From IMG/VR virus record IMGVR_UViG_3300012979_000030, positions 32,001 through 96,000 of that record: a DNA stretch of 64,000 bases, one strand, 5' to 3'. A model generated the notes under the pieces. That model had not been told where the DNA came from, did not search any database, and saw only the letters and a program-made list of their open reading frames with translations. The number at the start of each line of letters is the position of its first letter. Position 1 is the stretch's first letter. Below, piece by piece: positions 888-20,900 of the stretch. Source of the stretch: a virus. Its lineage: Duplodnaviria > Caudoviricetes. The position numbers and the translations under genes were made by a program.

Positions 888-1247
888 TTATTCTGTTTCT
901 TTTAATAATTCCAATAAATGACCAAGCATAATAGGTTCATTATATGATTCTTGTGGTATTTTATTAAATGATATGCTATTTTTGTCATTCAAAACATAAA
1001 TCATACCATTTTCACCAACAATAGTATTATCACCTACAACTCTCTTAATAATTGTTTTTACTTTCAAATCACAATTATCATATATATTGTTACCTATTTG
1101 TGGATATTGTGTTGTATAAACAATTTCATCATTATTAATTGTATTTTTCCATGATTTTGAACTATTTAATTTATTATACAAATCTGTATATATTACATTC
1201 AATCTATCATTGTTGATTTTTAATGTGGTACCTAATCTTATTGGCAT
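888..1247 (-). CDS. Hypothetical virion protein, paralogous to the C-terminal part of 45789..46607
   Basis: KLNSSKSW...VYTTQYPQIG...FNKIPQE...LLELLK aligns by eye with RLNKAWCW...IYTIPNPEIG...FDGIPED...LLKAIK; GGAG RBS and TATAAATA upstream. Confidence 0.6.
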   Translation of the reverse strand: MPIRLGTTLKINNDRLNVIYTDLYNKLNSSKSWKNTINNDEIVYTTQYPQIGNNIYDNCDLKVKTIIKRVVGDNTIVGENGMIYVLNDKNSISFNKIPQESYNEPIMLGHLLELLKETE

Positions 1248-1268
1248 TTATTTCTCCATATATAGAAT

Positions 1269-1276
1269 TATTTATA
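1269..1276 (-). promoter_or_regulatory. T4-type late promoter TATAAATA
   Basis: Exact TATAAATA about 22 nt upstream of the 888..1247 start; CATAAATA on + at 1300-1307 serves the divergent LRR operon. Confidence 0.5.
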
Positions 1277-1325
1277 CAATTATTTACCACTCAAAAGAAC
1301 ATAAATAAAAATATAATGTAGGAGA

Positions 1326-1577
1326 ATGTATATGGAGAAATCTATTGTTGTTCCGAATGGAACTACTGTCCGATGGAGAGTATATTGTGATGGATATGAA
1401 GAAGAATCCGGTATTGAAACAATTACCGGAAATAAAAGACTTTTAGTTGATTTAGAGTTAATTCCGGTTGAAGTAGATATTATTGATTATGAATTTACAA
1501 ATGAAGATAATATTGTAACATTAACAAAATATATAGGTTCCGAAACAAACGTGATTATGCCTGTTTTAATGGGGTGA
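1326..1577 (+). CDS. Small adaptor-like protein: half PEGA-like domain plus C-terminal LRR N-cap motif
   Basis: KSIVVPNGTTVRWRVYCDGY...LVDLE followed by DYEFTNEDNIVTLTKYIGSETNVIMP; GGAG RBS; start may be 1332. Confidence 0.65.
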   Translation: MYMEKSIVVPNGTTVRWRVYCDGYEEESGIETITGNKRLLVDLELIPVEVDIIDYEFTNEDNIVTLTKYIGSETNVIMPVLMG

Positions 1578-1580
1578 TAA

Positions 1581-2780
1581 ATGGCAATAACATTAGCAAA
1601 AGAAATACTTGCATCTCCAACTACTTTTAGAAACAATTCAAATATAGTTTCTGTTGATACAATGAATATTCCATGGGAAAATGACTCTATGGAATATAGT
1701 TTCAGCAATTGTTATAACCTTAAAGAGGTTCATAACATTTCAAATGATGTTATAAATTTAAGTTACACTTTTTATAATTGTTCAAATTTAACAAAATGCC
1801 CGGAAATTCCATCAAATGTATCAAATATGAGTTATACATTTTGTGGTTGTAACAATTTGAATGTTGCACCAACAATACCAAATAGTGTAACAAACATTGT
1901 TGGTTGTTTTGCAGATTGCCATTCATTAACATATACACCAACAATTCCAGAAAATATAACCAATTTGCAATCTACATTTTATAATTGTTCTAATTTAACA
2001 TCATTTCCAACAATACCAAATAGTGTATCAGATATGACACAAACCTATGCACTTTGTAAAAATATTAATGGTGTTATCACATATCCAACAAATATTGAGT
2101 GCTTAAGAGGAACATATGCATATTGTGATAATATAACATCTATTCCAAACATACCAGCATCAGTAACAGATTTATATGGAACATTTGAGGGATGTATTAA
2201 TGTTAGTGGAGATATTTACATACTTTCTGACAAAGTTTTAGATTGTAAAAATATATTTAATGGAACTTCTCAAATAAAAAATATATACATTCCATTTAAT
2301 TTTACAAATGATTATGCTGAAACTCTATATTGTTATAGTTCTGATTATGGTTATGATTCAATTTATATAAAATGTTTCAAAAATTCAGCACAAGTTTATT
2401 ACCAAAACGGTTCTATAAATGATAACATCAAGAATATTCAATTCAATGAATCAAAAACAGAAATCATTGTTGAATCATATTCAAATACATCAACATATTC
2501 AATAGATACATCAAATAATATATTAATAAATCACACAAATGGTTCACAATCATTGACATTAAAGTCTTTTATTGATGCAGGATATGATGGATATGGAACA
2601 TATGATGGTGTATACATTAAAGACATTTTAACATCTCAACTTCCACAAATACCTGAAGATGTCGTAGATATAAATTTAAGTGAATATGAAACAAGAACAT
2701 CAAATTATAAAACAGAGTTAATAAAATATATTGGAACCAATACAAGTGTTGTTGTTCCATCAACTGGGTTTGAGGGGTAA
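1581..2780 (+). CDS. BspA-like leucine-rich repeat protein 1 (about 8 repeats)
   Basis: 23-aa IPxxVxNMxxTFxxCxNL repeats; C-terminal ELIKYIGTNTSVVVP motif. Confidence 0.85.
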   Translation: MAITLAKEILASPTTFRNNSNIVSVDTMNIPWENDSMEYSFSNCYNLKEVHNISNDVINLSYTFYNCSNLTKCPEIPSNVSNMSYTFCGCNNLNVAPTIPNSVTNIVGCFADCHSLTYTPTIPENITNLQSTFYNCSNLTSFPTIPNSVSDMTQTYALCKNINGVITYPTNIECLRGTYAYCDNITSIPNIPASVTDLYGTFEGCINVSGDIYILSDKVLDCKNIFNGTSQIKNIYIPFNFTNDYAETLYCYSSDYGYDSIYIKCFKNSAQVYYQNGSINDNIKNIQFNESKTEIIVESYSNTSTYSIDTSNNILINHTNGSQSLTLKSFIDAGYDGYGTYDGVYIKDILTSQLPQIPEDVVDINLSEYETRTSNYKTELIKYIGTNTSVVVPSTGFEG

Positions 2781-2782
2781 CA

Positions 2783-3832
2783 ATGAAGACAAGACAAACA
2801 TTTTTAACATCAACAACATTTCAAAATAATCAATTAATTGAACATATTGATTGTAATAATGTAGTATGGAAAGGAAATTCAATATCATATGCATTTGCTG
2901 AATGTTCAAATTTAAAATCAATATCCAATATTAACAATAATGTATCTATTGTAAGTTATGCATATAAAAACTGTTCAAATTTATCAACACCACCAACATT
3001 ACCAAATAGTGTAACAAATATTGAGGGTGTTTATCAAGGATGTTCATCATTAACTGATATTCCTCATATTCCAGACAGTGTAACAAATATGTCATATACA
3101 TTTGCTGAATGCACAAACATCAAAAAATTATCAACATTACCAAACAGTGTATCAAATATGTCATATACATTTAGAAATTGCTTAAATTTATCATCTGTTT
3201 CATATACGTTTGATAATGTTTATAATATGGAAGGAACATTCCAAAACTGTATTAGATTGAATGGTGATATTCAAATAATATCTGAAAAAATTGGAAATGC
3301 AAATCTTTGTTTTGATAATTCTGGAACTTCCACAAAAAATGTTTATATTCCATTCAATTCAACCAAAAGACATTTATATTGTTATAGTAGAAATATAGAA
3401 GATTATGGATTTGAAAAATATTATATAGATGTTTATCCAATAAATCTATATGGGACTCAATTACCAGCATATGATGACAATGGAATCAATACTGGATATA
3501 CATTTTGGTTTACATCTAAAGATATTAATAGACCATTATTAGGTAAACCAAGTTCTGATGGAATTGGAACAACATATTCTGGTATTACTAGGGATATTAA
3601 GAATGATACATATGTCAATTTAGATGAACCAATTCCAACTATTACATATAATTCATTTATAAATGCTGGTTATAAAACTGATGGGTCATTGGATAATGTT
3701 TATTTGAAAGATTTTACTGAATTAGTTGCACAAGGTTACACCATAACAAATACTGAATCAACAGTATATCTAAATACATATATTGGAATAGAAACAAATA
3801 TTATAACACCAAAGTATTCTTGGGTTCAATAG
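2783..3832 (+). CDS. BspA-like LRR protein 2 (about 6 repeats)
   Basis: Same repeats; C-terminal VYLNTYIGIETNIITP motif. Confidence 0.85.
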   Translation: MKTRQTFLTSTTFQNNQLIEHIDCNNVVWKGNSISYAFAECSNLKSISNINNNVSIVSYAYKNCSNLSTPPTLPNSVTNIEGVYQGCSSLTDIPHIPDSVTNMSYTFAECTNIKKLSTLPNSVSNMSYTFRNCLNLSSVSYTFDNVYNMEGTFQNCIRLNGDIQIISEKIGNANLCFDNSGTSTKNVYIPFNSTKRHLYCYSRNIEDYGFEKYYIDVYPINLYGTQLPAYDDNGINTGYTFWFTSKDINRPLLGKPSSDGIGTTYSGITRDIKNDTYVNLDEPIPTITYNSFINAGYKTDGSLDNVYLKDFTELVAQGYTITNTESTVYLNTYIGIETNIITPKYSWVQ

Positions 3833-3840
3833 GAGAAATT

Positions 3841-5049
3841 ATGAGTGGATTATTACCAACAACACTAGTCAATACAACATATGCAAATAATAGAAACATT
3901 GTTTCTGTTGATTTAAATGAAGTTCCATTTTATAATAACTCAATGGCTGGTGCATTTAGTGGTTGTTCTAATCTAATATCTGTATCAAGTATCAATGAAA
4001 ATGTATCAAATATGTATCAAACATTTAATGGTTGTTCTAAATTAGTTAATGCACCAGATATTCCTAATGGTGTAACTGATATGAATGGGACATTTAGGTA
4101 TTGTTCTAAATTAGTTAATGCACCAGTTATCCCTAATAATGTTGTTAATATGAGTAGTACATTTAGTGGTTGTCAGAATCTAGTCAATGCACCTGTTATT
4201 CCTAATAGTGTAACTGATATGTATACTACATTTGGTTCATGTAGCAACCTAGTTAATGCACCAGATATTCCTAATAGTGTAACTAATATGCATCAAACAT
4301 TTTATTATTGTTATAATCTAGTTAATGCACCGGTTATCCCTAATAGTGTTGCTAAACTGTATCAAACATTTTATTACTGTAATAATCTAGTTAATGCACC
4401 TATTATCCCCAATAGTGTAACCAATATGTATAGAACATTTAGTGGTTGTCAGAATCTAGTCAATGCACCTGTTATTCCTAATAGTGTAACTGATATGAGT
4501 GGGACATTTAATGGTTGTTCTAATTTAGTCAATGCACCAAATATCCCTAATAGTGTTAAAGACATTAGTTATACATTTTCCAATTGTTCTAATCTAGTAA
4601 ATGCACCTGTAATTCCTAATAGTGTAACTAATATGAGATATACATTTAGTGGTTGTTCTAATCTAACAAGTAATATATACATACAATCAAAAAACATAAG
4701 AAATGCATATCATTGTTTTTATAATACATCACTAACAAAAAATGTATATATTCCATTTAAATATGAAAATGGTGAATATACAAAGACATATAATGCATTT
4801 GAAAATGCAGGATATACAGAAGAAACAATTGTTAATGGTGTTAAACTATTTGATAGTAATTATAACTACTATACTTTAACATTAAGAGTAATACCATCTG
4901 ATGCTGATGTTTTATCAGTAGATCCAAATATTAATGGATATATTGTTGATGTTACTGATTATGAATATCAATTAACAGATGGTGGTTCATCAGTAATATT
5001 AGGTAAATACATTGGTAATGATGTTGAGGAAATTATGCCAAATATTTAA
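3841..5049 (+). CDS. BspA-like LRR protein 3 (about 11 repeats)
   Basis: ATG 3841 after AGGAG RBS (track start 3820 is TTG); NAPVIPNSVT repeats; C-terminal VILGKYIGNDVEEIMP motif. Confidence 0.85.
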   Translation: MSGLLPTTLVNTTYANNRNIVSVDLNEVPFYNNSMAGAFSGCSNLISVSSINENVSNMYQTFNGCSKLVNAPDIPNGVTDMNGTFRYCSKLVNAPVIPNNVVNMSSTFSGCQNLVNAPVIPNSVTDMYTTFGSCSNLVNAPDIPNSVTNMHQTFYYCYNLVNAPVIPNSVAKLYQTFYYCNNLVNAPIIPNSVTNMYRTFSGCQNLVNAPVIPNSVTDMSGTFNGCSNLVNAPNIPNSVKDISYTFSNCSNLVNAPVIPNSVTNMRYTFSGCSNLTSNIYIQSKNIRNAYHCFYNTSLTKNVYIPFKYENGEYTKTYNAFENAGYTEETIVNGVKLFDSNYNYYTLTLRVIPSDADVLSVDPNINGYIVDVTDYEYQLTDGGSSVILGKYIGNDVEEIMPNI

Positions 5050-7380
5050 AGGGACAAAAAATGACAAAGGTTTATGTATCAAATGTTTATGCCAATAGTC
5101 AATTAACATTTATAAACAACAAAAATATCATTTCTATTGATTGTAATTATGTATCTTGGGTCAATAATACAATGTCTAATGCATTTAGAAATTGTTCTAA
5201 TCTAGTTTCTGTATCAAACATCAATGAAAATGTAACTGATATGAGGAATACATTTAGTAATTGTTGTAGTCTAGTTAATGCACCAGAAATTCCTAATAGT
5301 GTAATTGATATGTGGGAGACATTTAATAATTGTTATAATCTAATAAATGCACCAGTAATTCCTAATAGTGTAATTAGGATGGTTAATACATTTAATAATT
5401 GTTGTAGTCTAGTTAATGCACCTGTTATCCATAATGGTGTAACTGATATGAATGGGACATTTAGGTATTGTCGTAATCTAGTTAATGCGCCAGTAATTCC
5501 TAATAGTGTAACTAATATGAGTGATACATTTTATAATTGTTCTAATCTAATAAATGCACCAGAAATTCCTAATAGTGTAACTGATATGAGTGGAACATTT
5601 GGTTATTGTTCTAATCTAATAAATGCACCAGAAATTCCTAATAGTGTAATTAGTATGGAAGGGACATTTGCTGGTTGTAATCTAGTCAATTTTCCTGTTA
5701 TTCCTAATAGTGTAATTGATATGAGTACTACATTTGCTAGTTGTAATAATCTAGTCAATTCACCTATTATTCCTAATAGTGTAACTAGAATGTTTCGAAC
5801 ATTTTACGATTGTCCTAATCTAGTTGATGCACCTATTATACCTAATAGTGTTATTAATATGGAAAGAACATTTGATAATTGTACCAATCTAGTTGATGCA
5901 CCTATTATTCCAAATAGTGTTGTTAATATGAGTGGAACATTTTTTTATTGTCCTAATCTAGTCAATTTTCCTGTTATTCCTAATGGTGTAACTGATATGA
6001 GTTCTACATTTTATCATTGTGAAAAACTGCTTAATTCACCTGTTATCCCTAATAGTGTTACTAATATGTATGGGACATTTCAAAATTGTTTTAATCTAGT
6101 CAATGCACCAGTTATTCCTAATGGTGTAACTGATATGTGGAGGACATTTGATAATTGTCGTAATATAGTCAATGCACCTATTATACCTAATAGTGTAACT
6201 AAGATGGTTAATACATTTAATAATTGTTCTAATCTAACAGGTAATATATACATTCAATCAGTAAACATAAGTAATGCAATGGGTTGTTTTTATAATACAT
6301 CACTAACAAAAAATATATATATTCCATATACATGCACAATAGCATATTATAAAACTTTTAATAGTGGTGATACATATTACTTTGTAAAAAATTATAATAT
6401 TGGTGAACCAATTTATTATTATGATAATGGTCAATATACAGGACAAACAATAAAAAGTATTTTTGAGGCAGTTGGATTCTTCTATGACCAAAATTACAAA
6501 TACTATTATGATAATTCATCCGTTTCTGTTTCAGAAGAAGTTGAACCATATACAACACAAACATATAATTCATTTATTAATGCTGGTTATGATGAAAACG
6601 GAACAAAACATAATGTTTATTTAAAAGATTATAAAACATTATTTGATGTTAATTTAACAGATTACACACATACAATTGAAAATAATGTTGCAACAGTAAC
6701 AGCATATATAGGACAAGGTGGTGATATTACATTACCATCAACACTAAACAAATAGGAGAACTTTATGACAACAGTTAACAAAGTAATTTACTCTAATACA
6801 ACATTTACAAATTGTTCAAATATTGTATCAGTTGATTGTAATTATGTATCTTGGACTAATAACTCAATGTCTAATGCATTTAAAGATTGTTCCAATCTCA
6901 AATCTGTTAATAATATAAGTAAAAGTGTTACTAATATGTATTATACATTTAGGAATTGTCAAAATCTAGTTAATACTCCAGTAATTCCTAATAGTGTGGT
7001 TAATATGTATGGGACATTTCATTATTGTTATAATCTAGTCAATGCACCTATTATACCTAATAGTGTAACTGATATGAGTTATACATTTTATAGTTGTCAG
7101 AATCTAGTCAATGCACCAATAATTCCTAATAGTGTAACTAGTATGAATATGACATTTTATTGGTGCAAAAACATAGTCAATGCACCCATCATACCTAATA
7201 GTGTAACTTATATGAGTGGGACATTTGAAGATTGTTCTAATATAGTCAATGCACCCATCATACCTAATAGTGTAACTTATATGAGTGGGACATTTGAAGA
7301 TTGTTCTAATATAGTCAATGCACCTATTATACCTAATAGTGTAACTTATATGTTTGGGACATTTTCTAATTGTTATAATC
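4010..7380 (+). repeat. 69-nt (23-aa) coding tandem repeats in LRR genes 3-5
   Basis: Consensus cctaatagtgtaactNNNatgNNNNNNacatttNNNNNNtgtNNNaatctagtYaatgcaccN; near-exact adjacent copies start at 7201 and 7270. Confidence 0.9.
5061..6755 (+). CDS. BspA-like LRR protein 4 (about 16 repeats)
   Basis: Same repeats; C-terminal ATVTAYIGQGGDITLP motif. Confidence 0.85.
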   Translation: MTKVYVSNVYANSQLTFINNKNIISIDCNYVSWVNNTMSNAFRNCSNLVSVSNINENVTDMRNTFSNCCSLVNAPEIPNSVIDMWETFNNCYNLINAPVIPNSVIRMVNTFNNCCSLVNAPVIHNGVTDMNGTFRYCRNLVNAPVIPNSVTNMSDTFYNCSNLINAPEIPNSVTDMSGTFGYCSNLINAPEIPNSVISMEGTFAGCNLVNFPVIPNSVIDMSTTFASCNNLVNSPIIPNSVTRMFRTFYDCPNLVDAPIIPNSVINMERTFDNCTNLVDAPIIPNSVVNMSGTFFYCPNLVNFPVIPNGVTDMSSTFYHCEKLLNSPVIPNSVTNMYGTFQNCFNLVNAPVIPNGVTDMWRTFDNCRNIVNAPIIPNSVTKMVNTFNNCSNLTGNIYIQSVNISNAMGCFYNTSLTKNIYIPYTCTIAYYKTFNSGDTYYFVKNYNIGEPIYYYDNGQYTGQTIKSIFEAVGFFYDQNYKYYYDNSSVSVSEEVEPYTTQTYNSFINAGYDENGTKHNVYLKDYKTLFDVNLTDYTHTIENNVATVTAYIGQGGDITLPSTLNK

Positions 7381-7589
7381 TAAAGGGTAATGTATATATT
7401 CAATCAGAAAACATAACAAATGCATATAATTGTTTTTATTGTGCTTTTAATACACCATTGACAAAAAATGTATATATTCCATTTAAATATGAAAATGGTG
7501 AATATACAAAGACATATAATTCATTTATTAATGTAGGATATAATGAAAATGGAACAAAACATAATGTTTATTTAAAGAATATTAACTAA
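6765..7589 (+). CDS. BspA-like LRR protein 5 (about 8 repeats), last member, lacks the YIG..P tail
   Basis: Same repeats; ends at HNVYLKNIN directly after the C-cap. Confidence 0.85.
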   Translation: MTTVNKVIYSNTTFTNCSNIVSVDCNYVSWTNNSMSNAFKDCSNLKSVNNISKSVTNMYYTFRNCQNLVNTPVIPNSVVNMYGTFHYCYNLVNAPIIPNSVTDMSYTFYSCQNLVNAPIIPNSVTSMNMTFYWCKNIVNAPIIPNSVTYMSGTFEDCSNIVNAPIIPNSVTYMSGTFEDCSNIVNAPIIPNSVTYMFGTFSNCYNLKGNVYIQSENITNAYNCFYCAFNTPLTKNVYIPFKYENGEYTKTYNSFINVGYNENGTKHNVYLKNIN

Positions 7590-7636
7590 TTATAATCATA
7601 TACAATTATAGTTAAAATTAAATGTCATAAAAATAT

Positions 7637-7660
7637 TGAGGGGATAAATCAATCCCCTCA
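7637..7660. terminator. Hairpin between the convergent LRR operon and glycosyltransferase
   Basis: TGAGGGGAT-aaatca-ATCCCCTCA inverted repeat. Confidence 0.65.
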
Positions 7661-7664
7661 TTAA

Positions 7665-8663
7665 TTATTCACATTCTTTTTCCAATTCTTCAAGAAATTC
7701 TTTGATTCCAATTCTTGGAATAATTCCATGTAATTTATTACCCATATAACAATTTCTCATAACATCATTATAAATGTCAGAAAAAATATTATCTGGTATC
7801 TTATCTTTAATTTCTCTATAAACTTCTTTATAATATTTCAAACAAGAATTCCAATTCTGTTCAATAAATCTTTTATCTCTTTCTTCTGTTTCAATATAAT
7901 ATTCATATAAATTGCACAAAATCTGAACCTTTTGTTGCATAATATTACCATTAAATGGTGCAACTTTTTCAGCATATTTAACTGCATAAATCATATTTTC
8001 TGTATATCCAACAAATGATTGATCATATGAATATTGTGCATTGTTAATTCTTGTAATAGAATCTTCTTTAAAATGCCAATAATATGTAATATCTTGTATA
8101 AACTTGATTTGTTCATTTTGATTTGATACTAATTTACAAATCATATTAAAACCATTATCTTCATTGGCACGACTACCATTTAAGAACCTAATATTATACT
8201 TGTTTATAAAATCTCTTTTATACAATTTACCAAACATCCATACAGAATCATTTGGATGTCCAATATATGTTGTTTTTTGATCTTCCAAAAATTGACTGAA
8301 CACACAAGAAATTCTTGGATCAGATAAGATTTGTAATCTCAATGTTTTTAATGCAAATGCACCACTAAACGTGTCATCAGCATCAATAAACATCAACAAT
8401 GGGTTTGATGTATTATCAATACCATATTGTCTTGCATCCCCAGGACCACCATTTTTCTCCATAACAATTTCTCTAATTTTCATATATGGAGAAAACATAT
8501 CAACAAAATTTTTATAACCAATTCCATCAGCATCATTTACAATTGTTACTTCAACATCATCAACAATTTCTTGTGATGCAATACTCGATAATGTTCTTAA
8601 CAATGTATTTTGTGCTTTGTATGCAGGAATAATAATATCTATTTTTGGCAAACTATTTTCCAT
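7665..8663 (-). CDS. Glycosyltransferase family 2
   Basis: IDIIIPAYK, TIVNDAD, NGGPGDARQYG, FIDADD (DxD) and NED motifs; start 8663 has an AAGGA RBS. Confidence 0.9.
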   Translation of the reverse strand: MENSLPKIDIIIPAYKAQNTLLRTLSSIASQEIVDDVEVTIVNDADGIGYKNFVDMFSPYMKIREIVMEKNGGPGDARQYGIDNTSNPLLMFIDADDTFSGAFALKTLRLQILSDPRISCVFSQFLEDQKTTYIGHPNDSVWMFGKLYKRDFINKYNIRFLNGSRANEDNGFNMICKLVSNQNEQIKFIQDITYYWHFKEDSITRINNAQYSYDQSFVGYTENMIYAVKYAEKVAPFNGNIMQQKVQILCNLYEYYIETEERDKRFIEQNWNSCLKYYKEVYREIKDKIPDNIFSDIYNDVMRNCYMGNKLHGIIPRIGIKEFLEELEKECE

Positions 8664-8696
8664 ATTCTTTTCCTTATAATTATTACAAACTTCTTT

Positions 8697-8725
8697 ATTA
8701 TAATCATTATACATTACTTAGTCAA
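8697..8725 (-). promoter_or_regulatory. Sigma70-type promoter for the GT2 gene
   Basis: TTGACT-N17-TATAAT. Confidence 0.6.
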
Positions 8726-8893: not shown

Positions 8894-10780
8894 ATGACAG
8901 TTAGAATACAAATGAGAAGAGATACTGCTGCTAATTGGATTAAATATAATCCCATTTTAGCAAGTGGTGAAATTGGTCTTGAAACAGACACTAGTAAAAT
9001 AAAAGTAGGTAATGGCAATGATGTATATACAGATTTACCATACAAAATAGTAACAACAGAACAAATCAATTTAATTAGTCAACAACAATTGACAGGTGAA
9101 TCAATTACAGGTGGTGCTATTAAATATGGTATTTGGTATGCTGTGTCATCTGGTAATGTTGCTAGAAATAGAACTGTTACAGATTTCATTGAATTACCAA
9201 CAACACATAATCATGAATTGTTGTTTAAAATACCATTGCTTGATTTAAGTAGTCCAGAATACCCATTTATATCATTATATAAAGCACCTAGCAATGATAC
9301 TGCATCATTGGTTGGATATTTTAAAAGAGATGGTGGAACATTAGGTGGATCAGAATTAACAATTTCTGATGTAAAATGTGTTGCAGATACAACAATTAAT
9401 AGTTCACCATATTATTTGTATGAACCATCAACAAAAACACTTAGTTATAATCCATCAGAAGTAAAATATATTAGATGTTCATTACAAGATGCTCAATTAA
9501 CATATGAATATACTATTACAACACAAAATGTTGTTGAAAGTGTTGATATTACACATGGTGTTATCAAGTCAACACATATTGAACCAACATATCATTATTC
9601 AAATGTTGTTCGTGGTAATATGTATAATAATAAAACATATATACTTCCAGAAACAACTGGAAATGTTGCAGCAGCAGCAATGATGACATTGACATCATTA
9701 GAAGATGGTTCAACATTTTCTTGCCCTACTCGTGTATTAACAGAACCAATTGAATTAAAATATGATGGTCTTGTAATAGATGGTACAATCTATGACTACC
9801 CAGGTGGTGGTTATGATACATTGTTATTTTATGACGAAAATAATACACCAATTGAAGGGTATGAAGGTATCAATGGTGCTTTAAATATAATTACAACAAA
9901 TCAAATTGATATTGACTCAAGTGTGTCTAAATTAACAATTGTGACAAGTAATTCAACAACAGCACATATAAAAGTTCCACCTACCTACAAATATGTAAGA
10001 TCTTCAACAACATTTACTCCAAATGCTGGTATAGAAAATGGTGGTATAATTGTCAAGTATCATTATATTGGTGAACCAGAAAAAAATATTATTACATCAA
10101 CAACATTAGATGAATATATTGATGGTAAAATTAAATTGCCTACACAAACATCTGGAACATATCATTGGTCAGAAAACTATGGTAAATCGGTTGTTGCTCT
10201 TGGTGGTTCATTTGCTACAACTGGATATGCTCAACGTGCATATGATATTTGGAATGAAAAATTAGGATTATCATATAAATCAGTTGCAGTTGGTGGTGCT
10301 GGTTTCTGTGTTGGTTCAACATTTGTAACACAAGCAACCAATGCTCCTGTTGCAGACATTTATGTAATTTGGTGTTCAACAAATGACTTTGCAAATGGTA
10401 AACCAATTGGAACAAAAGATGATGATTATGCAACCACACCAACACAATGGTCTGCATTTAAAAAGGTTATAGAAACCTTATATACTAAAAACCCAAATGC
10501 AAAAATTTGTTTATTCACATCATCACCACATTTAACAAATGCAAAAGGTAATGAAGAAGGTATTGGTAGTGCAAGTTCATTGACACCATTAAAAGAATAT
10601 GTTGATGCACAAATTGCTGTATGTAAACATTATAGTATTCCTGTGTTGGATCAATATTATCAATCAAATCATAACTCATTTACAAAATCATTGGTATGTA
10701 AAAGTGGTGATTTCCATTTAACTCCATATGGTTATGAAGTTATGGCAGGAAGACAATTGCAAATGTTAGCAAGTTTATAA
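8894..10780 (+). CDS. Tailspike/fibre protein: Mtd_N-like N-terminus plus C-terminal SGNH/GDSL esterase
   Basis: RIQMRRDTAANW...NPILASGEIGLETDT..IKVGNG N-terminus; SGNH blocks ALGGSFA, AVGGAG, WCSTND, DFHLTPYGY. Confidence 0.8.
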   Translation: MTVRIQMRRDTAANWIKYNPILASGEIGLETDTSKIKVGNGNDVYTDLPYKIVTTEQINLISQQQLTGESITGGAIKYGIWYAVSSGNVARNRTVTDFIELPTTHNHELLFKIPLLDLSSPEYPFISLYKAPSNDTASLVGYFKRDGGTLGGSELTISDVKCVADTTINSSPYYLYEPSTKTLSYNPSEVKYIRCSLQDAQLTYEYTITTQNVVESVDITHGVIKSTHIEPTYHYSNVVRGNMYNNKTYILPETTGNVAAAAMMTLTSLEDGSTFSCPTRVLTEPIELKYDGLVIDGTIYDYPGGGYDTLLFYDENNTPIEGYEGINGALNIITTNQIDIDSSVSKLTIVTSNSTTAHIKVPPTYKYVRSSTTFTPNAGIENGGIIVKYHYIGEPEKNIITSTTLDEYIDGKIKLPTQTSGTYHWSENYGKSVVALGGSFATTGYAQRAYDIWNEKLGLSYKSVAVGGAGFCVGSTFVTQATNAPVADIYVIWCSTNDFANGKPIGTKDDDYATTPTQWSAFKKVIETLYTKNPNAKICLFTSSPHLTNAKGNEEGIGSASSLTPLKEYVDAQIAVCKHYSIPVLDQYYQSNHNSFTKSLVCKSGDFHLTPYGYEVMAGRQLQMLASL

Positions 10781-16955: not shown

Positions 16956-18710
16956 TTATTTCCTTATATATACACCATATTTTTCTAATTCTGTTATTTG
17001 CTCATCACTCAAAAATTCAACAACTGATGGTTCCCTCTTAATTATATTAAATAAATCTTTTACTGATGGTTTTCCTACATAAAATAAATATAAATCTTCA
17101 CCAACTTTATTAATATTATTCACAATCATAGAATTCCAGGTATTTTTTAAATTTGATTTACCAACGATTGATGTAATATCATTACATTTAACATCATACA
17201 TACCCTTAATTTGTAAATTATGTAAGATTGCCTGTTTTAATAACCAATAATATAATTTTGATTTTAATTCATCAGACATAATATCACCAAGTGTATTTGA
17301 ATTATAGATATAATAATTTATTTGGGTTAAATTTATATCACCAATTTTTAAACACAAATTAAATATTGATTTTTCTATCACTTGCAAATTTAATGGAAAT
17401 TTACATTCAACAAGTGTATTGAGCATTGACATTATCAATTTGTTCATATCTTTGATTTTATAAATTGAATTATATACTATTTCCTTATCAACAACATCTA
17501 AAACATTAGACCTATAGCATTTTTTTAATATATATGGTATATTTTCTGAACAACTCATTGATACAAGTTTATTAATGAATGTTTTAACATCATAATTTTC
17601 TGCATCACCAATAATTTCATAAAATGAATCTTCAACACTTAAAACAAAATTATATTTTTCATTTCCAATAATATTTTTTACCATGTTGTTTTCTTTAATA
17701 ACACATTTATACAATATATCCTTATTTTTATTGCATTTTGATAAAAAGTTTTTTATTGAATTACTAGATAAACCACTCTTTTTATTTGTTTTAAATTTAA
17801 TATCCTTAGAACTATCATATGATTCATCATGTGTCAAAAATTCTAATGTTGGTTTTGATGGTGCTTTTTCAACTGCTTTTTCTAATTCTGCAAAAAACTC
17901 ATCTTTTGGTGTTCCAATACCAACTAATTTATCAGAATCCATATATGTTTTTATTTTTCCAATCAATTTTATGAACAATTTATAAAAATTCTTAATTGAA
18001 TCAGAAACACCATCATTCATAAAATCCCTTGGACCTCTCCATTCCAATGTTCCTTGTGGGTGAATTCTAAATACTCTCCATTTTCTTGTCCCTAAATATG
18101 ATAGTACCTCTACATAATCTCGTTCTCTTAATGCATCACCCAAACCTATAATGGACTCATATGATGCCCATTCATCACTATATAATGAATATCCATCCAT
18201 TTTTCCAAAATCATTCTTTAGTGTTGGTTCAGAGGCCATATTACAGTATATCCATACCATATCACGTTCTGTTAAACCTTTAAAATGTAAATGATGATGA
18301 AACCCACATGTTTTATTTGTATATACACCACTCTCTAATAATTCATATAATGTTTTTATAATAGCATTGAACCATATTGGTTTACATGGAATTATAGGAC
18401 TCGAGTATTCAAATGAAATATCATTATAACTATAATCATCGGTGCTGACAGAAGAATCTTCATGACATCCATCACTACCAATCAAATCACCATCACCATA
18501 GTGTTTTAATCTATTTGTAATATAGTCTTTTATATTATTTAAACGTGCCTCATCTACATCATCTTCATCATATACACCATATTCAATTTCATTATATATT
18601 TCACTGTCTTCTTTGATACATCCTTCTAATTCAAACCCCATTGTGAAATCAGATGTTAATAGTGTTTCATCTAATCTTTCTAATTGCTCTAATAGTTGAT
18701 TTTTAGACAT
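16956..18710 (-). CDS. Amidoligase-2-like protein B
   Basis: MGFELE, HEDSSV, FEYSSP, TCGFHHHLH, HPQGTLEWRGPR. Confidence 0.75.
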   Translation of the reverse strand: MSKNQLLEQLERLDETLLTSDFTMGFELEGCIKEDSEIYNEIEYGVYDEDDVDEARLNNIKDYITNRLKHYGDGDLIGSDGCHEDSSVSTDDYSYNDISFEYSSPIIPCKPIWFNAIIKTLYELLESGVYTNKTCGFHHHLHFKGLTERDMVWIYCNMASEPTLKNDFGKMDGYSLYSDEWASYESIIGLGDALRERDYVEVLSYLGTRKWRVFRIHPQGTLEWRGPRDFMNDGVSDSIKNFYKLFIKLIGKIKTYMDSDKLVGIGTPKDEFFAELEKAVEKAPSKPTLEFLTHDESYDSSKDIKFKTNKKSGLSSNSIKNFLSKCNKNKDILYKCVIKENNMVKNIIGNEKYNFVLSVEDSFYEIIGDAENYDVKTFINKLVSMSCSENIPYILKKCYRSNVLDVVDKEIVYNSIYKIKDMNKLIMSMLNTLVECKFPLNLQVIEKSIFNLCLKIGDINLTQINYYIYNSNTLGDIMSDELKSKLYYWLLKQAILHNLQIKGMYDVKCNDITSIVGKSNLKNTWNSMIVNNINKVGEDLYLFYVGKPSVKDLFNIIKREPSVVEFLSDEQITELEKYGVYIRK

Positions 18711-18764
18711 ATAATTATCCCCATAAATATTGTATAATAGTATTTATGGGGATTTATTCTTATA

Positions 18765-19691
18765 TTATTTGTTTAGAATGTTTTTAATTTCCACTAAACA
18801 CGCCATCAAATTCAAATCTTTAAATGCAACTGTTGGATGTTTATAAAGATATTCAGCAACCTTAACAATTATTTGTTCCCATTTATTTCTATCAACAGTA
18901 AATACATCTAATTTGTTATATATTATTTTATATATGTTCTCAATCTCATCCTCATTGAAACTTGTAGCAATAAGTTTTTGAACATCATTACAATGCTTTC
19001 TATTATGAACAAAATCTAAAATAGGTAGTAGTTTATCTAAGTTAGAAACTTCATATTCTTTTTTAAATTTACTTAATTCACCATTAATAACATTCTTATT
19101 AATATCATTAATACATTTTCGCAAATCAGGATATGATAACTTAATATATTCAACAACATCTTCCATAGAATATTTAATATTCTCTTTTGTAAGAATATTC
19201 ACAATTCTTGTTACAAATTGTTGTTGGTCAAGTTTTTGGAAACTATATGATTCACATCTTGAAAGAATTGCAGGTGTAACCTTATTAACATTATTAGTTG
19301 TGAAAATGAATCTACACCATAATGAATACTTTTCCAATACATACTTTAATGAATCTTGTGCTTGTGCTGATAATCTTTCAAATTCTTCAATAATAACAAC
19401 CTTAATTTTATCATCTAATGATGGAACAGAAGCATATTCAATGATTCTTCTAGTATCATCAATACCTGTTTTATCAGAACCATTGATAGTAATGTAGTCG
19501 CTGATGTTTAATTCATTTAGAATAACATTAATTGAAGATGATTTACCTGTTCCCGGAATCCCATATAATAAAATATGAGAATCAAATGAACCTTTTTCCT
19601 TCCATTGTTTTAACTTATCACCAAACTCTTTATTGGTAATAACTAAATCTTCAATTGTTTTTGGTCTATATTTTTCTGTCAATAATTCCAT
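18765..19691 (-). CDS. Sliding-clamp loader AAA+ subunit (T4 gp44/RFC-like)
   Basis: EKYRPKTI, GIPGTGKS, IIEEFERLS..AQDSL, FIFTTN, ILSRC, YPDLRKCIN. Confidence 0.92.
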   Translation of the reverse strand: MELLTEKYRPKTIEDLVITNKEFGDKLKQWKEKGSFDSHILLYGIPGTGKSSSINVILNELNISDYITINGSDKTGIDDTRRIIEYASVPSLDDKIKVVIIEEFERLSAQAQDSLKYVLEKYSLWCRFIFTTNNVNKVTPAILSRCESYSFQKLDQQQFVTRIVNILTKENIKYSMEDVVEYIKLSYPDLRKCINDINKNVINGELSKFKKEYEVSNLDKLLPILDFVHNRKHCNDVQKLIATSFNEDEIENIYKIIYNKLDVFTVDRNKWEQIIVKVAEYLYKHPTVAFKDLNLMACLVEIKNILNK

Positions 19692-19701
19692 AATATTTTC
19701 C

Positions 19702-19917
19702 TTATAAAACTTCATCTAATGATTGGCATTTAATACCCTTTGGGCAATTTTTAGCAATATAATCACAACCTTTTTCATTTGTAATAATAAAAACCGAACC
19801 ATTTTTATATGGATATACATTGCTAATTGTTTTAGCATAATTAACTGCTTTTTTAGAAAAAAATGCTTTGATTGAACCAAAATTTGTTTTTTCAAATGTG
19901 ATGTTGTATGTTGCCAT
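19702..19917 (-). CDS. Small hypothetical early protein
   Basis: AAGGA RBS; promoter immediately upstream. Confidence 0.6.
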   Translation of the reverse strand: MATYNITFEKTNFGSIKAFFSKKAVNYAKTISNVYPYKNGSVFIITNEKGCDYIAKNCPKGIKCQSLDEVL

Positions 19918-19944
19918 ATATTGTTCCTTTCTCTTGATATATTC

Positions 19945-19973
19945 TTTATATCATTTTTTGAAACCAATGTCAA
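19945..19973 (-). promoter_or_regulatory. Sigma70-type promoter
   Basis: TTGACA-N17(ending TGA)-TATAAA. Confidence 0.6.
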
Positions 19974-19976
19974 GCA

Positions 19977-20900
19977 CTATTTTAACCCTTTAAACAAATA
20001 TTTAATAACATTGGCATTCCATCCATTACCACAAGCATTATATCGGTTTCCATCACTAATGTCAATGGTTTTTCCATCTTTCAACCCATATTTGGTGTAA
20101 TTATCGGGTAATGACTGACACCGTTCATATTCTATTGGTAACATTTTTCTGTTTCTATCACCTTGTCTAACTTTTTTATGAGTATAACCCCCATTAACAC
20201 AAGTTAATGTATAACATTTACTATTTAAATTACTGACTCTTTTACCCATTTTAAAACAATTAATTTTTAATGTACAGATTGGGTTGGCATCTTCACCATG
20301 ATATTCATAATCATACTTATACCAATATTTGTTTGGAACATTTTCTTCTGGTTCAACAATATCCTTTAACAATTCTGTTGATTTTTCAATTGGTTGTCCA
20401 TCATTGGGAATATTTGTCCAAAACAATCTCTTTCTTCTTTGTGCCGAAAAATCAGCAGCATCTAACATTATTGGTTCAACACCCATGAGTTCAGTAATAA
20501 TGGTTTTATCAGATTCGGGCATACCATAATTGTTTTCTAATAAGAACTTAATATTAGGATTAACAGATTTTAAATGATTTAAGATTTCAACATATCTATA
20601 AAACAATCCAGATTTAGAACCCTTTAAACCTTCTCTTTCATTTTGTTGACCAACTCTAATAATAGAAAGGTCTGTACAAGGACTTCCACCAATTAATAAA
20701 TCAATTGATTTCCAATCAATATCCCAATCTCTCCAATTATTAACATCACCTAATTGAATTGTATTTGGATAATTATATTGTGTAATAACAATAGCTGATT
20801 CTTCAATCTCACTTGCATAATATGTTTCAACAGTTATGCCTAACTGATTTAAGCATAATTGTCCTGTTGAAATCCCATCAAATAAACTTAATACTTTCAT
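19977..20900 (-). CDS. C5-cytosine DNA methyltransferase
   Basis: LSLFDGI (motif I), GGSPC (IV), LLENN (VI), QRRKRLFW (VIII), CGNGW (X). Confidence 0.93.
   Translation of the reverse strand: MKVLSLFDGISTGQLCLNQLGITVETYYASEIEESAIVITQYNYPNTIQLGDVNNWRDWDIDWKSIDLLIGGSPCTDLSIIRVGQQNEREGLKGSKSGLFYRYVEILNHLKSVNPNIKFLLENNYGMPESDKTIITELMGVEPIMLDAADFSAQRRKRLFWTNIPNDGQPIEKSTELLKDIVEPEENVPNKYWYKYDYEYHGEDANPICTLKINCFKMGKRVSNLNSKCYTLTCVNGGYTHKKVRQGDRNRKMLPIEYERCQSLPDNYTKYGLKDGKTIDISDGNRYNACGNGWNANVIKYLFKGLK

What the first reader, a model, noticed from the sequence alone, without database searches (positions are those of the whole stretch)
1326..7589. LRR N-cap is split across gene boundaries: a possible head-to-tail self-assembling protein chain
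Seen: five consecutive ORFs end in the same motif followed quickly by a stop: DYEF...VTLTKYIGSETNVIMP (1326), EYE...ELIKYIGTNTSVVVP (1581), GYT...VYLNTYIGIETNIITP (2783), DYEY...VILGKYIGNDVEEIMP (3841) and DYT...ATVTAYIGQGGDITLP (5061). Each next ORF starts directly with the remainder of an LRR cap, (T)T(F/Y)xNxxxIxx(V/I)D. The first ORF has the tail but no LRR, and the last (6765) has an LRR but no tail. Known: in BspA/LRR_5 proteins a Yxxxxxx(T)ITxYxGxxxxVxIP motif normally precedes the repeats in the same polypeptide as the N-cap. Inference: each protein donates the cap strands for the next one, giving an ordered anchor-1-2-3-4-tip chain, analogous to donor-strand complementation in pili. 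Three of the five junctions are out of frame (gaps of 3, 2, 8, 11 and 9 nt), so simple read-through does not explain the pattern.
Basis: partly seen in the sequence, partly recalled or inferred. Interest (0 to 1): 0.88.

Follow-up and report, generated by a model that had tools for sequence, protein, structure and literature searches.

The report
Phage LRR proteins capped in trans
In an uncultured gut or rumen jumbo phage, six back-to-back genes encode binding proteins in which the small starting cap of each repeat domain sits on the end of the previous protein. The proteins therefore probably click together head to tail into one modular fibre, a way of joining phage adhesins that I found described in no paper.

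Summary
Six translationally coupled genes (1326/1332-7589, + strand) encode an 81-83 aa non-LRR protein and five BspA-type LRR_5 proteins. The first five end in the Y-x-G...V-x-x-P hairpin, and every following gene starts 4-9 residues before the first LRR strand. The stops are genuine: four independent assemblies at about 90% identity have identical junctions 1-4, and contigs from four studies bridge all five without indels.

The hairpin is the LRR_5 N-cap. PDB 4gt6 aligns in one collinear stretch across junction 5. Related phage contigs carry the same junction either split (26 distinct cases) or fused in one polypeptide (8 cases) with the same spacing. Non-LRR proteins of 71-1751 aa also carry the hairpin at their extreme C-terminus, just before an LRR gene.

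A terminal hairpin predicts a downstream LRR gene (odds ratio 13, p 2e-5). A complex model puts the anchor's tail on the N-terminal edge of protein 2 (ipSAE 0.75, best control 0.00), though this could reflect memory of cis structures.

Trans capping is well supported by inference. The strict gene order of the chain and an obligate need for the cap are not shown: about 19 of 50 comparable LRR genes have no such neighbour. This scan noted split LRR docks on other DNA before. I found no paper.

The parts
1300..1307 (+). CATAAATA, a T4-type late-promoter-like motif 24 nt upstream of ATG 1332. A TATAAATA on the - strand (1269-1276) faces the divergent fibre operon.
   Evidence: (the motif is depleted in the window: 20 found against 41 expected) and sequence. 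Promoter function is inferred, not shown.
1326..1577 (+). Anchor: a small non-LRR protein (83 aa from 1326, more likely 81 aa from ATG 1332). It consists of the second half of a PEGA-like beta domain plus the plug tail.
   Evidence: no Pfam hit; aligned with the C-termini of the 81-1751 aa anchors of other contigs; called as 81 aa in four relatives.
1464..1574 (+). Plug 1: a hairpin plus a V-I-M-P strand at the C-terminus of the anchor.
   Evidence: Tail HMM residues 50-82. In the complex model, residues 44-82 contact residues 1-28 of protein 2.
1581..2780 (+). LRR protein 2 (399 aa). Socket = residues 1-28 (1581-1664), then LRR_5 repeats, a C-cap, an insert, and plug 2 at 2661-2777.
2783..3832 (+). 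LRR protein 3 (349 aa). Socket at its N-terminus; plug 3 at 3716-3829.
3841..5049 (+). LRR protein 4 (402 aa from ATG 3841). Socket at its N-terminus, the first half of a PEGA-like domain before the tail, and plug 4 at 4936-5046.
   Evidence: called as 402 aa in relatives.
5061..6755 (+). LRR protein 5 (564 aa, about 17 repeats). Socket at its N-terminus; plug 5 at 6639-6752.
   Evidence: AF2 monomer: the solenoid is confident, the tail hairpin forms (E535-540, E543-549), and the final I-T-L-P segment is coil with pLDDT falling from 71 to 48.
6765..7589 (+). LRR protein 6 (274 aa), the tip. It has a socket but no plug and ends at NVYLKNIN.
   Evidence: Tail-less LRR proteins usually end arrays in relatives.
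7637..7660 (.). The only terminator-like hairpin in 1150-7750. It is bidirectional and lies between the array and the convergent glycosyltransferase gene, so it closes a six-gene operon.

Best explanation
The six genes form one late operon that builds a non-covalent, head-to-tail chain of proteins on the virion. In ordinary BspA-type LRR_5 domains, a beta-hairpin followed by the first V-x-I-P strand caps the N-terminal end of the solenoid. Here that element has been cut off from its own domain, in the loop 2-7 residues after the proline, and left on the C-terminus of the preceding protein (the plug). The next protein begins 4-9 residues before its first strand, with an open N-terminal edge (the socket). 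After synthesis the plug of protein n adds its strands to the first rung of protein n+1 by beta-sheet augmentation. The result is anchor (81 aa) - 2 - 3 - 4 - 5 - 6, in which protein 6 has no plug and ends the chain. Tight translational coupling (gaps of 2-11 nt) brings each plug out just before the neighbouring socket on the same mRNA, which may fix the order by itself. The product would be a fibre that displays five different LRR binding surfaces; related phages encode the same thing as single multi-module polypeptides. Shown here: the gene structure, the homology of the tail to the cis cap, the fused and split relatives, and the statistical association. Inferred: binding in trans, the order of the chain, a location on the virion, and a role in adhesion.
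For: (1) The genes are genuinely separate. Every junction has a stop, an SD and an ATG. Junctions 1-4 are identical in four independent assemblies at about 90% nt identity. Contigs from four studies bridge all five junctions without indels. (2) The tail is the LRR_5 N-cap. 4gt6 residues 21-205 align in one stretch across a read-through of junction 5. (3) Rosetta-stone evidence: in 56 related loci there are 26 distinct split junctions and 8 fused ones. From the P to the N-module, the split junctions span a median of 11 residues and the fused ones 9.5. In the fused relative P0071, structural matches to solved LRR domains start at residue 181, the first residue of the internal tail, so the tail belongs to the downstream domain. 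(4) Non-LRR proteins of 71, 79, 81, 189, 818, 1171 and 1751 aa carry the cap at their extreme C-terminus, directly before an LRR gene. Tandem duplication of LRR genes cannot explain this. (5) Among LRR proteins, 16 of 22 with a terminal tail are followed by an LRR gene, against 7 of 42 without one (Fisher odds ratio 13.3, p 1.8e-5). (6) Complex model of the anchor with protein 2: ipSAE 0.75, 0.75 and 0.74, best of 3 controls 0.00. That mark was reached by 58 of 80 solved complexes and 2 of 110 mismatched pairs. The runs share at least 97% of contacts and the partner's pLDDT is at least 81. The interface is anchor 44-82 with protein 2 residues 1-28; tail strand 74-78 pairs with strand 22-28, and protein 2's own tail did not take that place. 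(7) In monomer models the terminal hairpin forms but the last strand stays unpaired and less confident. (8) The tails are more conserved than the gene bodies: 3 of 136 against 95 of 1072 nonsynonymous codons versus L057. Y, G and P are near-invariant. (9) The plug at an extreme C-terminus is widespread: 20 of the top 150 cluster representatives in 1.84 billion proteins.
Against: There is no experiment, and no virion or expression data. The complex score may come from the model's memory of cis-capped LRR_5 structures such as 4gt6. It shows likeness, not binding, and only one pair was tested, with no non-cognate control. About 19 of 50 LRR genes with the same N-terminal module have no plug-bearing upstream neighbour, so the socket probably folds without a partner and the cap is not obligate. 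Three arrays end in a tail with no LRR gene downstream (L002, L006, L055). The related junctions share ancestry, so the counts are not independent events. Physical linkage of tail and next N-terminus on the DNA would also produce co-inheritance without binding. Plug and socket residues that touch in the model are largely the conserved ones, which argues for promiscuity and not for a fixed order.
Confidence: 0.55

Rival explanations
1. Promiscuous plug and socket. The tails do dock on LRR N-termini, but any plug fits any socket. The particle would then carry a mixture of chains of variable length and order, each ended whenever the plug-less protein 6 is added, and not one ordered anchor-2-3-4-5-6 chain.
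For: The contacts in the model involve mostly conserved residues (Y-x-G, V-x-x-P, the T-F-x-N-N strand). Backbone beta-augmentation is intrinsically unspecific. Sockets without an adjacent plug, and plugs without an adjacent socket, exist in relatives.
Against: The five plugs and five sockets of this phage have diverged: about 30-45% identity among the tails, with different residues after the P and before the first strand. Junction types recur as pairs in different contigs. Gene order and tight coupling are conserved.
Confidence: 0.2
2. Evolutionary relic. A multi-module LRR protein was cut into genes at this loop once, and the layout was copied by tandem duplication. The tails persist but no longer bind anything, and the proteins act separately.
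For: Fused multi-module relatives exist. The five junctions in this genome may descend from one event. Many sockets seem to live without plugs.
Against: The cap-forming residues are kept across very divergent tails, and the tails evolve more slowly than the gene bodies. Unrelated non-LRR proteups of 71-1751 aa carry the tail at their extreme C-terminus next to an LRR gene. Tail-less LRR proteins are the ones that end arrays. A useless 35-residue appendage would not be expected to survive in 26 distinct junctions.
Confidence: 0.1
3. Self-capping or homopolymer. The tail folds back on the N-terminus of its own chain, or caps another copy of the same protein, giving closed monomers or homopolymer filaments and not a heteromeric chain.
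For: Each middle protein has both a socket and a plug. Relatives such as P0071 stand alone with a free socket and a free plug, for which self-polymerisation is the simplest reading.
Against: In a solenoid the C-terminus lies at the end opposite the N-terminus. In protein 5, only about 12 residues link the C-cap region to the hairpin, across about 17 repeats. The AF2 monomers of protein 5 and P0071 do not pair the last tail strand. In the complex model the anchor's tail, not protein 2's own, occupies the socket. The anchor has a plug only and protein 6 a socket only, which fits a finite hetero-chain.
Confidence: 0.07
4. Recoding. The stops are bypassed by read-through or frameshifting, so that fused multi-module proteins are made from the array.
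For: Junctions 1 and 5 are in frame. At junction 2 a run of four G lies before the stop, where a -1 slip would enter the next frame. Fused forms exist in relatives.
Against: Junction 1 has two different stops in tandem. Every junction carries its own SD and ATG. Across 26 split junctions the nucleotide gaps range from -14 to +110 with no constant frame relation, and they include ATGA overlaps typical of coupling. All three stop codons are used, so no reassigned code fits.
Confidence: 0.03
5. Artefact. Sequencing or assembly errors broke one long gene.
For: None found.
Against: The junctions are identical in four independent assemblies from at least two projects at about 90% identity. Contigs of four further studies cross every junction without indels. 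The same layout occurs in many unrelated contigs.
Confidence: 0.01

Closest known systems
BspA-type LRR_5 surface proteins with a cis N-cap (Pfam PF13306; solved 4gt6, 4fs7, 4h09, TpLRR 6mlx)
   Same: The same repeat family, and the same hairpin-plus-first-strand cap with Y-x-G...V-x-I-P. The order of elements is collinear once tail n and protein n+1 are read together.
   Different: In the solved and ordinary members the cap is on the same chain as its repeats. Here it sits on the preceding polypeptide, or on a non-LRR protein, and is separated by a stop, an SD and an ATG.
Donor-strand complementation/exchange in chaperone-usher pili (Fim, Pap) and strand exchange in type V pili (established knowledge)
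   Same: Each subunit is structurally incomplete, and a strand from its neighbour completes it. This gives an ordered, non-covalent, head-to-tail polymer that ends in a special tip or terminator subunit.
   Different: The pilus fold is an Ig-like pilin that lacks a core strand. Its donor is an N-terminal extension, and assembly needs a periplasmic chaperone and an usher. Here the fold is an LRR solenoid whose end cap is donated. The donor is C-terminal and has three strands. No helper is evident, and assembly would be cytoplasmic in a phage-infected cell.
Multi-protein and branched receptor-binding fibres of phages (T4 long tail fibre gp34-37; CBA120 and G7C tailspike adaptors) (established knowledge)
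   Same: Several adjacent late genes encode proteins that join in series or as branches to display more than one binding module.
   Different: Those use dedicated N-terminal adaptor domains and trimeric interfaces. Here the connector is a split cap of the binding domain itself. The same junction exists fused in relatives. No oligomeric state is known here.
Multi-module LRR proteins of related phage contigs (L003 1161 aa, L005 911 aa, L006 708 aa, L008 907 aa, P0071 488 aa)
   Same: The same modules, the same internal hairpin between modules and the same spacing.
   Different: They are covalent beads on a string, whereas the window phage has one gene per bead.

Membership tests
BspA-type LRR (Pfam LRR_5, PF13306) | Profile match above the curated cut-off | tested here: met
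   Proteins 2-6 score 45-87 bits against a cut-off of 27.7. There are 12 matches in the phage record, all in this array.
BspA-type LRR (Pfam LRR_5, PF13306) | Sequence and fold likeness to solved members | tested here: met
   phmmer hits to 4gt6, 4fs7 and 6mlx. The model of fused relative P0071 matches 4fs7 with Z 17.9 (rmsd 17.1 A over 330 aligned, spanning both modules). Its second module matches 6mlx with Z 15.8 (rmsd 3.4 A, 191 aligned).
BspA-type LRR (Pfam LRR_5, PF13306) | N-cap hairpin on the same polypeptide as the repeats, as in 4gt6 residues 21-41 | tested here: not met
   Proteins 2-6 start 4-9 residues before the first LRR strand and have no hairpin of their own upstream. The hairpin lies at the end of the previous protein. 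This is the one respect in which they depart from the family's usual architecture.
Donor-strand complementation polymers (chaperone-usher pili) | Ig-like subunit lacking its last strand, completed by the N-terminal extension of the next subunit | tested here: not met
   The fold is an LRR solenoid. The donated element is C-terminal and forms an end cap. The likeness is functional only.
Donor-strand complementation polymers (chaperone-usher pili) | Dedicated chaperone and usher genes | not tested
   No dedicated search for chaperone or usher families was made. The Pfam scan of the four neighbouring genes named none (GT2, Mtd_N/GDSL, a weak sub-cut-off PQQ_2 hit and one without a hit), and the record is only about 41% of the phage.
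PEGA / Head_fiber_dimeric-like domain (PF08308, PF25641) in the anchor | Profile match in the residues before the tail | tested here: inconclusive
   The window anchor has no Pfam hit at E 0.01. It does align with anchors that hit PEGA (L014, 1.5e-7) or PF25641 (L044 1.2e-40, L016 1.6e-7) directly before their tails, and it covers only the second half of that domain.
Programmed recoding (read-through or frameshift fusion) | Constant frame relation and slippery or leaky signal at the junction, without an independent start | tested here: not met
   The gaps and frames vary, every junction has its own SD and ATG, and junction 1 has tandem stops.

The most novel reading that the evidence does not exclude
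Cap complementation is a general, programmable connector of gut and rumen jumbo phages. Any virion protein that ends in the 35-residue plug can carry any protein that starts with the LRR socket. Operon order plus translational coupling would write the order of a heteropolymer fibre. Proteins with both a free socket and a free plug (such as P0071) would grow into open-ended filaments. Split and fused forms would interconvert freely in evolution, letting phages restack their binding modules gene by gene.
Probability: 0.3. Interest if true: 0.85.

Novelty: new variant of a known kind. Interest (0 to 1): 0.72.

Why it matters
If the proteins really join through a donated cap, this is a new natural way to build ordered protein chains: end-cap complementation of a solenoid, used five times in a row. 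That would explain how uncultured jumbo phages display several different binding modules on one fibre and swap them one gene at a time. It would also change annotation. A short C-terminal hairpin on an otherwise unrelated phage protein would predict its partner, and 'hypothetical' 50-120 aa proteins would become adaptors. Finally, it offers protein engineers a small genetically encoded connector for LRR scaffolds. The hypothesis can be tested directly with six synthetic genes, with no need to culture the phage or its host.

Tried and rejected
- blastn of the array against 50,697 phage records gave no match.
- The search for related loci with protein 2 alone and with the anchor alone in IMG/VR found no confirmed relatives. 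An alignment query was needed.
- PHROGs gave nothing for the anchor and only function-unknown families for the LRR proteins and large anchors.
- Literature searches (BspA + phage + fiber; donor strand + LRR + N-terminal cap; LRR_5 + phage) found no description of a trans-donated LRR cap. The library is limited to open-access papers and preprints.
- No RNA holder was listed among public runs, so expression could not be examined.
- Sequencing error, a reassigned stop codon and read-through or frameshift fusion were considered and rejected.
- I considered a covariation (Mantel or mutual-information) test of plug-socket specificity and dropped it. With about 34 related junctions, and plug and socket only a few bases apart on the DNA, linkage cannot be separated from co-evolution.
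- Only one complex job was available, so non-cognate pairs, the other four junctions and the possible split PEGA-like joint of the anchor were not modelled.
- The structure tool returns no contacts, so whether a tail touches its own chain could be judged only indirectly, from secondary structure and pLDDT.


Full report
**What is there.** The window is bases 32001-96000 of a 106.5-kb IMG/VR phage record. The record has about 27% G+C and CheckV rates it 41% complete, so this is probably a jumbo phage.

Between a divergent fibre-gene operon and a convergent glycosyltransferase gene lie six + strand genes:
- 1326/1332-1577
- 1581-2780
- 2783-3832
- 3841-5049
- 5061-6755
- 6765-7589

The five long genes reach the Pfam LRR_5 (BspA-type) cut-off; the first has no Pfam hit. 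The intergenic gaps are 3, 2, 8, 11 and 9 nt, and junctions 2-4 are out of frame.

Every junction has a stop, an SD-like GGAG/GAGG and an ATG, and junction 1 has tandem TGA TAA. A T4-type late-promoter-like CATAAATA precedes the first gene. The only terminator-like hairpin follows the last gene. The unit therefore looks like one late operon.

A profile of the tail hits the whole phage record only at these five C-termini.

**The stops are real.** Four independent metagenome assemblies at about 90% nucleotide identity carry the same genes (81, 422, 349 and 402 aa, then a fifth). Their sequences at junctions 1-4 are identical to the window's. Logan contigs from four further studies of bovine, sheep and other gut samples cross all five junctions with no insertion or deletion there.

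**The tail is the LRR_5 N-cap.** In the solved structure 4gt6, residues 21-41 (DNTATITKYTGNEHRITIPAQ) align with the tail of protein 5. When junction 5 is read through for the search, 4gt6 residues 21-205 align in a single collinear stretch that runs from the tail into protein 6. So tail n plus protein n+1 together have the architecture of an ordinary one-chain LRR_5 domain. The cut lies in the loop after the V-x-x-P strand.

**Relatives.** Protein 2 has 1486 homologues in the 5.8-billion-protein collection. Many share the N-terminal module and also end in the tail. I fetched 56 related loci: L001 and L002 by exact-protein look-up of two homologues, and L003-L056 by an alignment query against IMG/VR and JGI/ENA metagenome contigs. 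I mapped three home-made profiles (tail, N-terminal module, C-cap) on all their ORFs. Several of the metagenome loci repeat IMG/VR contigs, so junctions were counted once per distinct sequence.

Among 46 distinct tails:
- **26 split.** A stop comes 2-7 residues after the P. The next gene, mostly -14 to +22 nt away, starts 4-9 residues before the N-module.
- **8 fused.** They lie inside one polypeptide and are followed directly by the next N-module.
- **2** precede an LRR gene that has an extra N-terminal domain of about 190 aa.
- **2** have one gene in between.
- **3** end arrays with no LRR gene after them.
- **5** fit none of these: 4 lie inside proteins with no N-module after them, and 1 is a 48-aa ORF in L012 that I could not place.

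From the P to the module, the split junctions span a median of 11 residues and the fused ones 9.5. The same structural junction therefore exists in both covalent and non-covalent form, which is the classical Rosetta-stone sign that the two sides interact.

**Anchors.** The tail also sits at the extreme C-terminus of proteins with no LRR at all: 71, 79, 81 and 189 aa, and 818, 1171 and 1751 aa. Each is followed at once by an LRR gene. A 629-aa example has one gene in between.

In these anchors a PEGA-like / PF25641 'head fibre dimeric-like' beta domain lies directly before the tail. PF25641 takes its name from the head fibre protein gp29 of crAss001 (PMC10172136). The match shows a fibre-type beta domain, not a location on the head.

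Tandem duplication of LRR genes cannot put an LRR cap on the end of unrelated proteins. A docking function can.

**Association.** I counted LRR proteins with a recognisable C-cap and enough downstream sequence. Of 22 with a terminal tail, 16 are followed by an LRR gene. Of 42 without one, 7 are, and two of those 7 have divergent tails that the profile missed. The odds ratio is 13.3 and p is 1.8e-5. Tail-less proteins such as protein 6 typically end an array.

The junctions are related by descent, so the p-value overstates independence, but the direction is clear.

The tails are also under tighter constraint than the gene bodies. Against the 90% relative, 3 of 136 tail codons are nonsynonymous, compared with 95 of 1072 elsewhere. 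Y, G and P are near-invariant.

In 1.84 billion cluster representatives, 1034 match the tail profile. Of the best 150, 20 carry it at the extreme C-terminus, among them many proteins of 53-116 aa.

**Models.** The one complex job paired the anchor with full-length protein 2, both as alignments.
- ipSAE was 0.75, 0.75 and 0.74, and the best of three controls was 0.00.
- That mark was reached by 58 of 80 solved complexes and 2 of 110 mismatched pairs.
- The runs share at least 97% of contacts, and the partner's pLDDT is at least 81.
- The interface is anchor residues 44-82 with protein 2 residues 1-28.
- The tail strand T-N-V-I-M (74-78) pairs with the first LRR strand I-V-S-V-D-T-M (22-28), and the hairpin (64-69) covers residues 9-16. 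This is the geometry of a cis cap. Protein 2's own tail did not occupy the site.

Because cis-capped LRR_5 structures are solved, this pass may be memory of that fold. It shows likeness, not that these chains bind.

In the AF2 model of the natural fused relative P0071, all strands of the internal tail form (E184-188, 196-201, 207-209), while the terminal tail forms only the hairpin. Structural matches to solved LRR domains start at residue 181, the first residue of the internal tail, so the tail belongs to the downstream domain.

In the AF2 model of protein 5 alone, the solenoid is confident and the hairpin forms. The last I-T-L-P segment is coil, with pLDDT falling from 71 to 48. That is what a strand waiting for a partner would look like, and it argues against self-capping.

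**What is not supported or not known.** About 19 of 50 LRR genes with the same N-terminal module have no plug-bearing upstream neighbour. The socket can therefore probably fold alone, and the cap is a tether and not a folding requirement.

Three arrays end with an unused plug. The partner may be encoded elsewhere, or such proteins may polymerise with themselves.

Plug-socket specificity was not tested. The contacting residues are mostly the conserved ones, so a promiscuous, mixed chain is a live alternative to the strict gene-order chain. Translational coupling could impose order kinetically; that is an inference from general knowledge of operon-ordered assembly and was not tested here.

Recoding is unlikely. 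The gaps and frames vary across junctions, every junction has its own start signals, and junction 1 has two stops.

**Comparison and novelty.** The proteins are members of LRR_5 in every respect except that the cap is on another chain. The assembly principle resembles donor-strand complementation of pili, but the fold, the polarity of the donor and the helper machinery all differ, so this is an analogy and not membership. It also resembles serial or branched phage fibres, but with a different connector.

I found no paper that describes a trans-donated LRR cap. Earlier notes of this scan report split LRR docks in other phage genomes. They are unchecked AI notes and not independent evidence, but they suggest the principle is common among gut phages.

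I class this as a new variant of a known kind: an ordered assembly through a split domain.

Noticed in passing
window 1332-1463; G000:C1:26006-26404 (- strand, outside the window): The anchor, like its 81-aa homologue in L017, begins with only the second half of the PEGA-like domain that is complete in larger anchors (L014, L016). A 132-aa protein of the divergent fibre operon ends with only a first half (…VTITIEPTPSNAIVTITFIE). This could be a second split-domain joint that fixes the chain to the particle. Protein 4 also has an orphan first half just before its tail.
   Followed up: partly
window 1581-2780 and 5061-6755 versus L057-L060; window 3985-7145: The number of LRR repeats differs between close relatives: protein 2 is 399 against 422 aa, and protein 5 is 564 against at least 384 aa. 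Public contigs show many 'skips' and 'goes back' joints inside the repeat arrays. Both suggest repeat-mediated expansion, contraction and mosaicism of the binding modules.
   Followed up: partly
L001:1756-3747, L008:9812-10132, L026:2097-4079: A recurrent N-terminal domain of about 190 aa (starting …NYTVVGNPTI…) precedes the LRR module in proteins that follow a plug-ended gene. Here the socket is not at the protein's N-terminus.
   Followed up: no
P0164, P0217, P0237, P0249: Small proteins of 101-172 aa carry two hairpin motifs, one near the N-terminus and one at the extreme C-terminus. They may be double-plug adaptors.
   Followed up: no
L016:6985-7599 and L025:196-687: In one lineage a gene of 163-204 aa sits between the plug-bearing protein and the first LRR gene, and that LRR gene has a 27-aa N-terminal extension. 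P0019 looks like a fusion of this small protein with an LRR.
   Followed up: no
window 1248-1325: The divergent intergenic region has TATAAATA on the - strand (1269-1276) and CATAAATA on the + strand (1300-1307). The motif YATAAATA is depleted in the window (20 found against 41 expected), as expected for a real promoter signal that is avoided elsewhere.
   Followed up: partly
window 7665-8714 (-) and 8894-10780 (+): Next to the array lie a family-2 glycosyltransferase gene and a 628-aa protein with an Mtd_N tail-fibre N-terminus and an SGNH/GDSL hydrolase C-terminus. The latter may be a receptor-modifying or depolymerising fibre.
   Followed up: no
L002 (278-kb contig), 18625-21467: The jumbo-phage relative that carries the fused LRR protein P0071 also has a run of N6/N4 methyltransferase genes, like the methyltransferase array that others noted in this window.
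   Followed up: no
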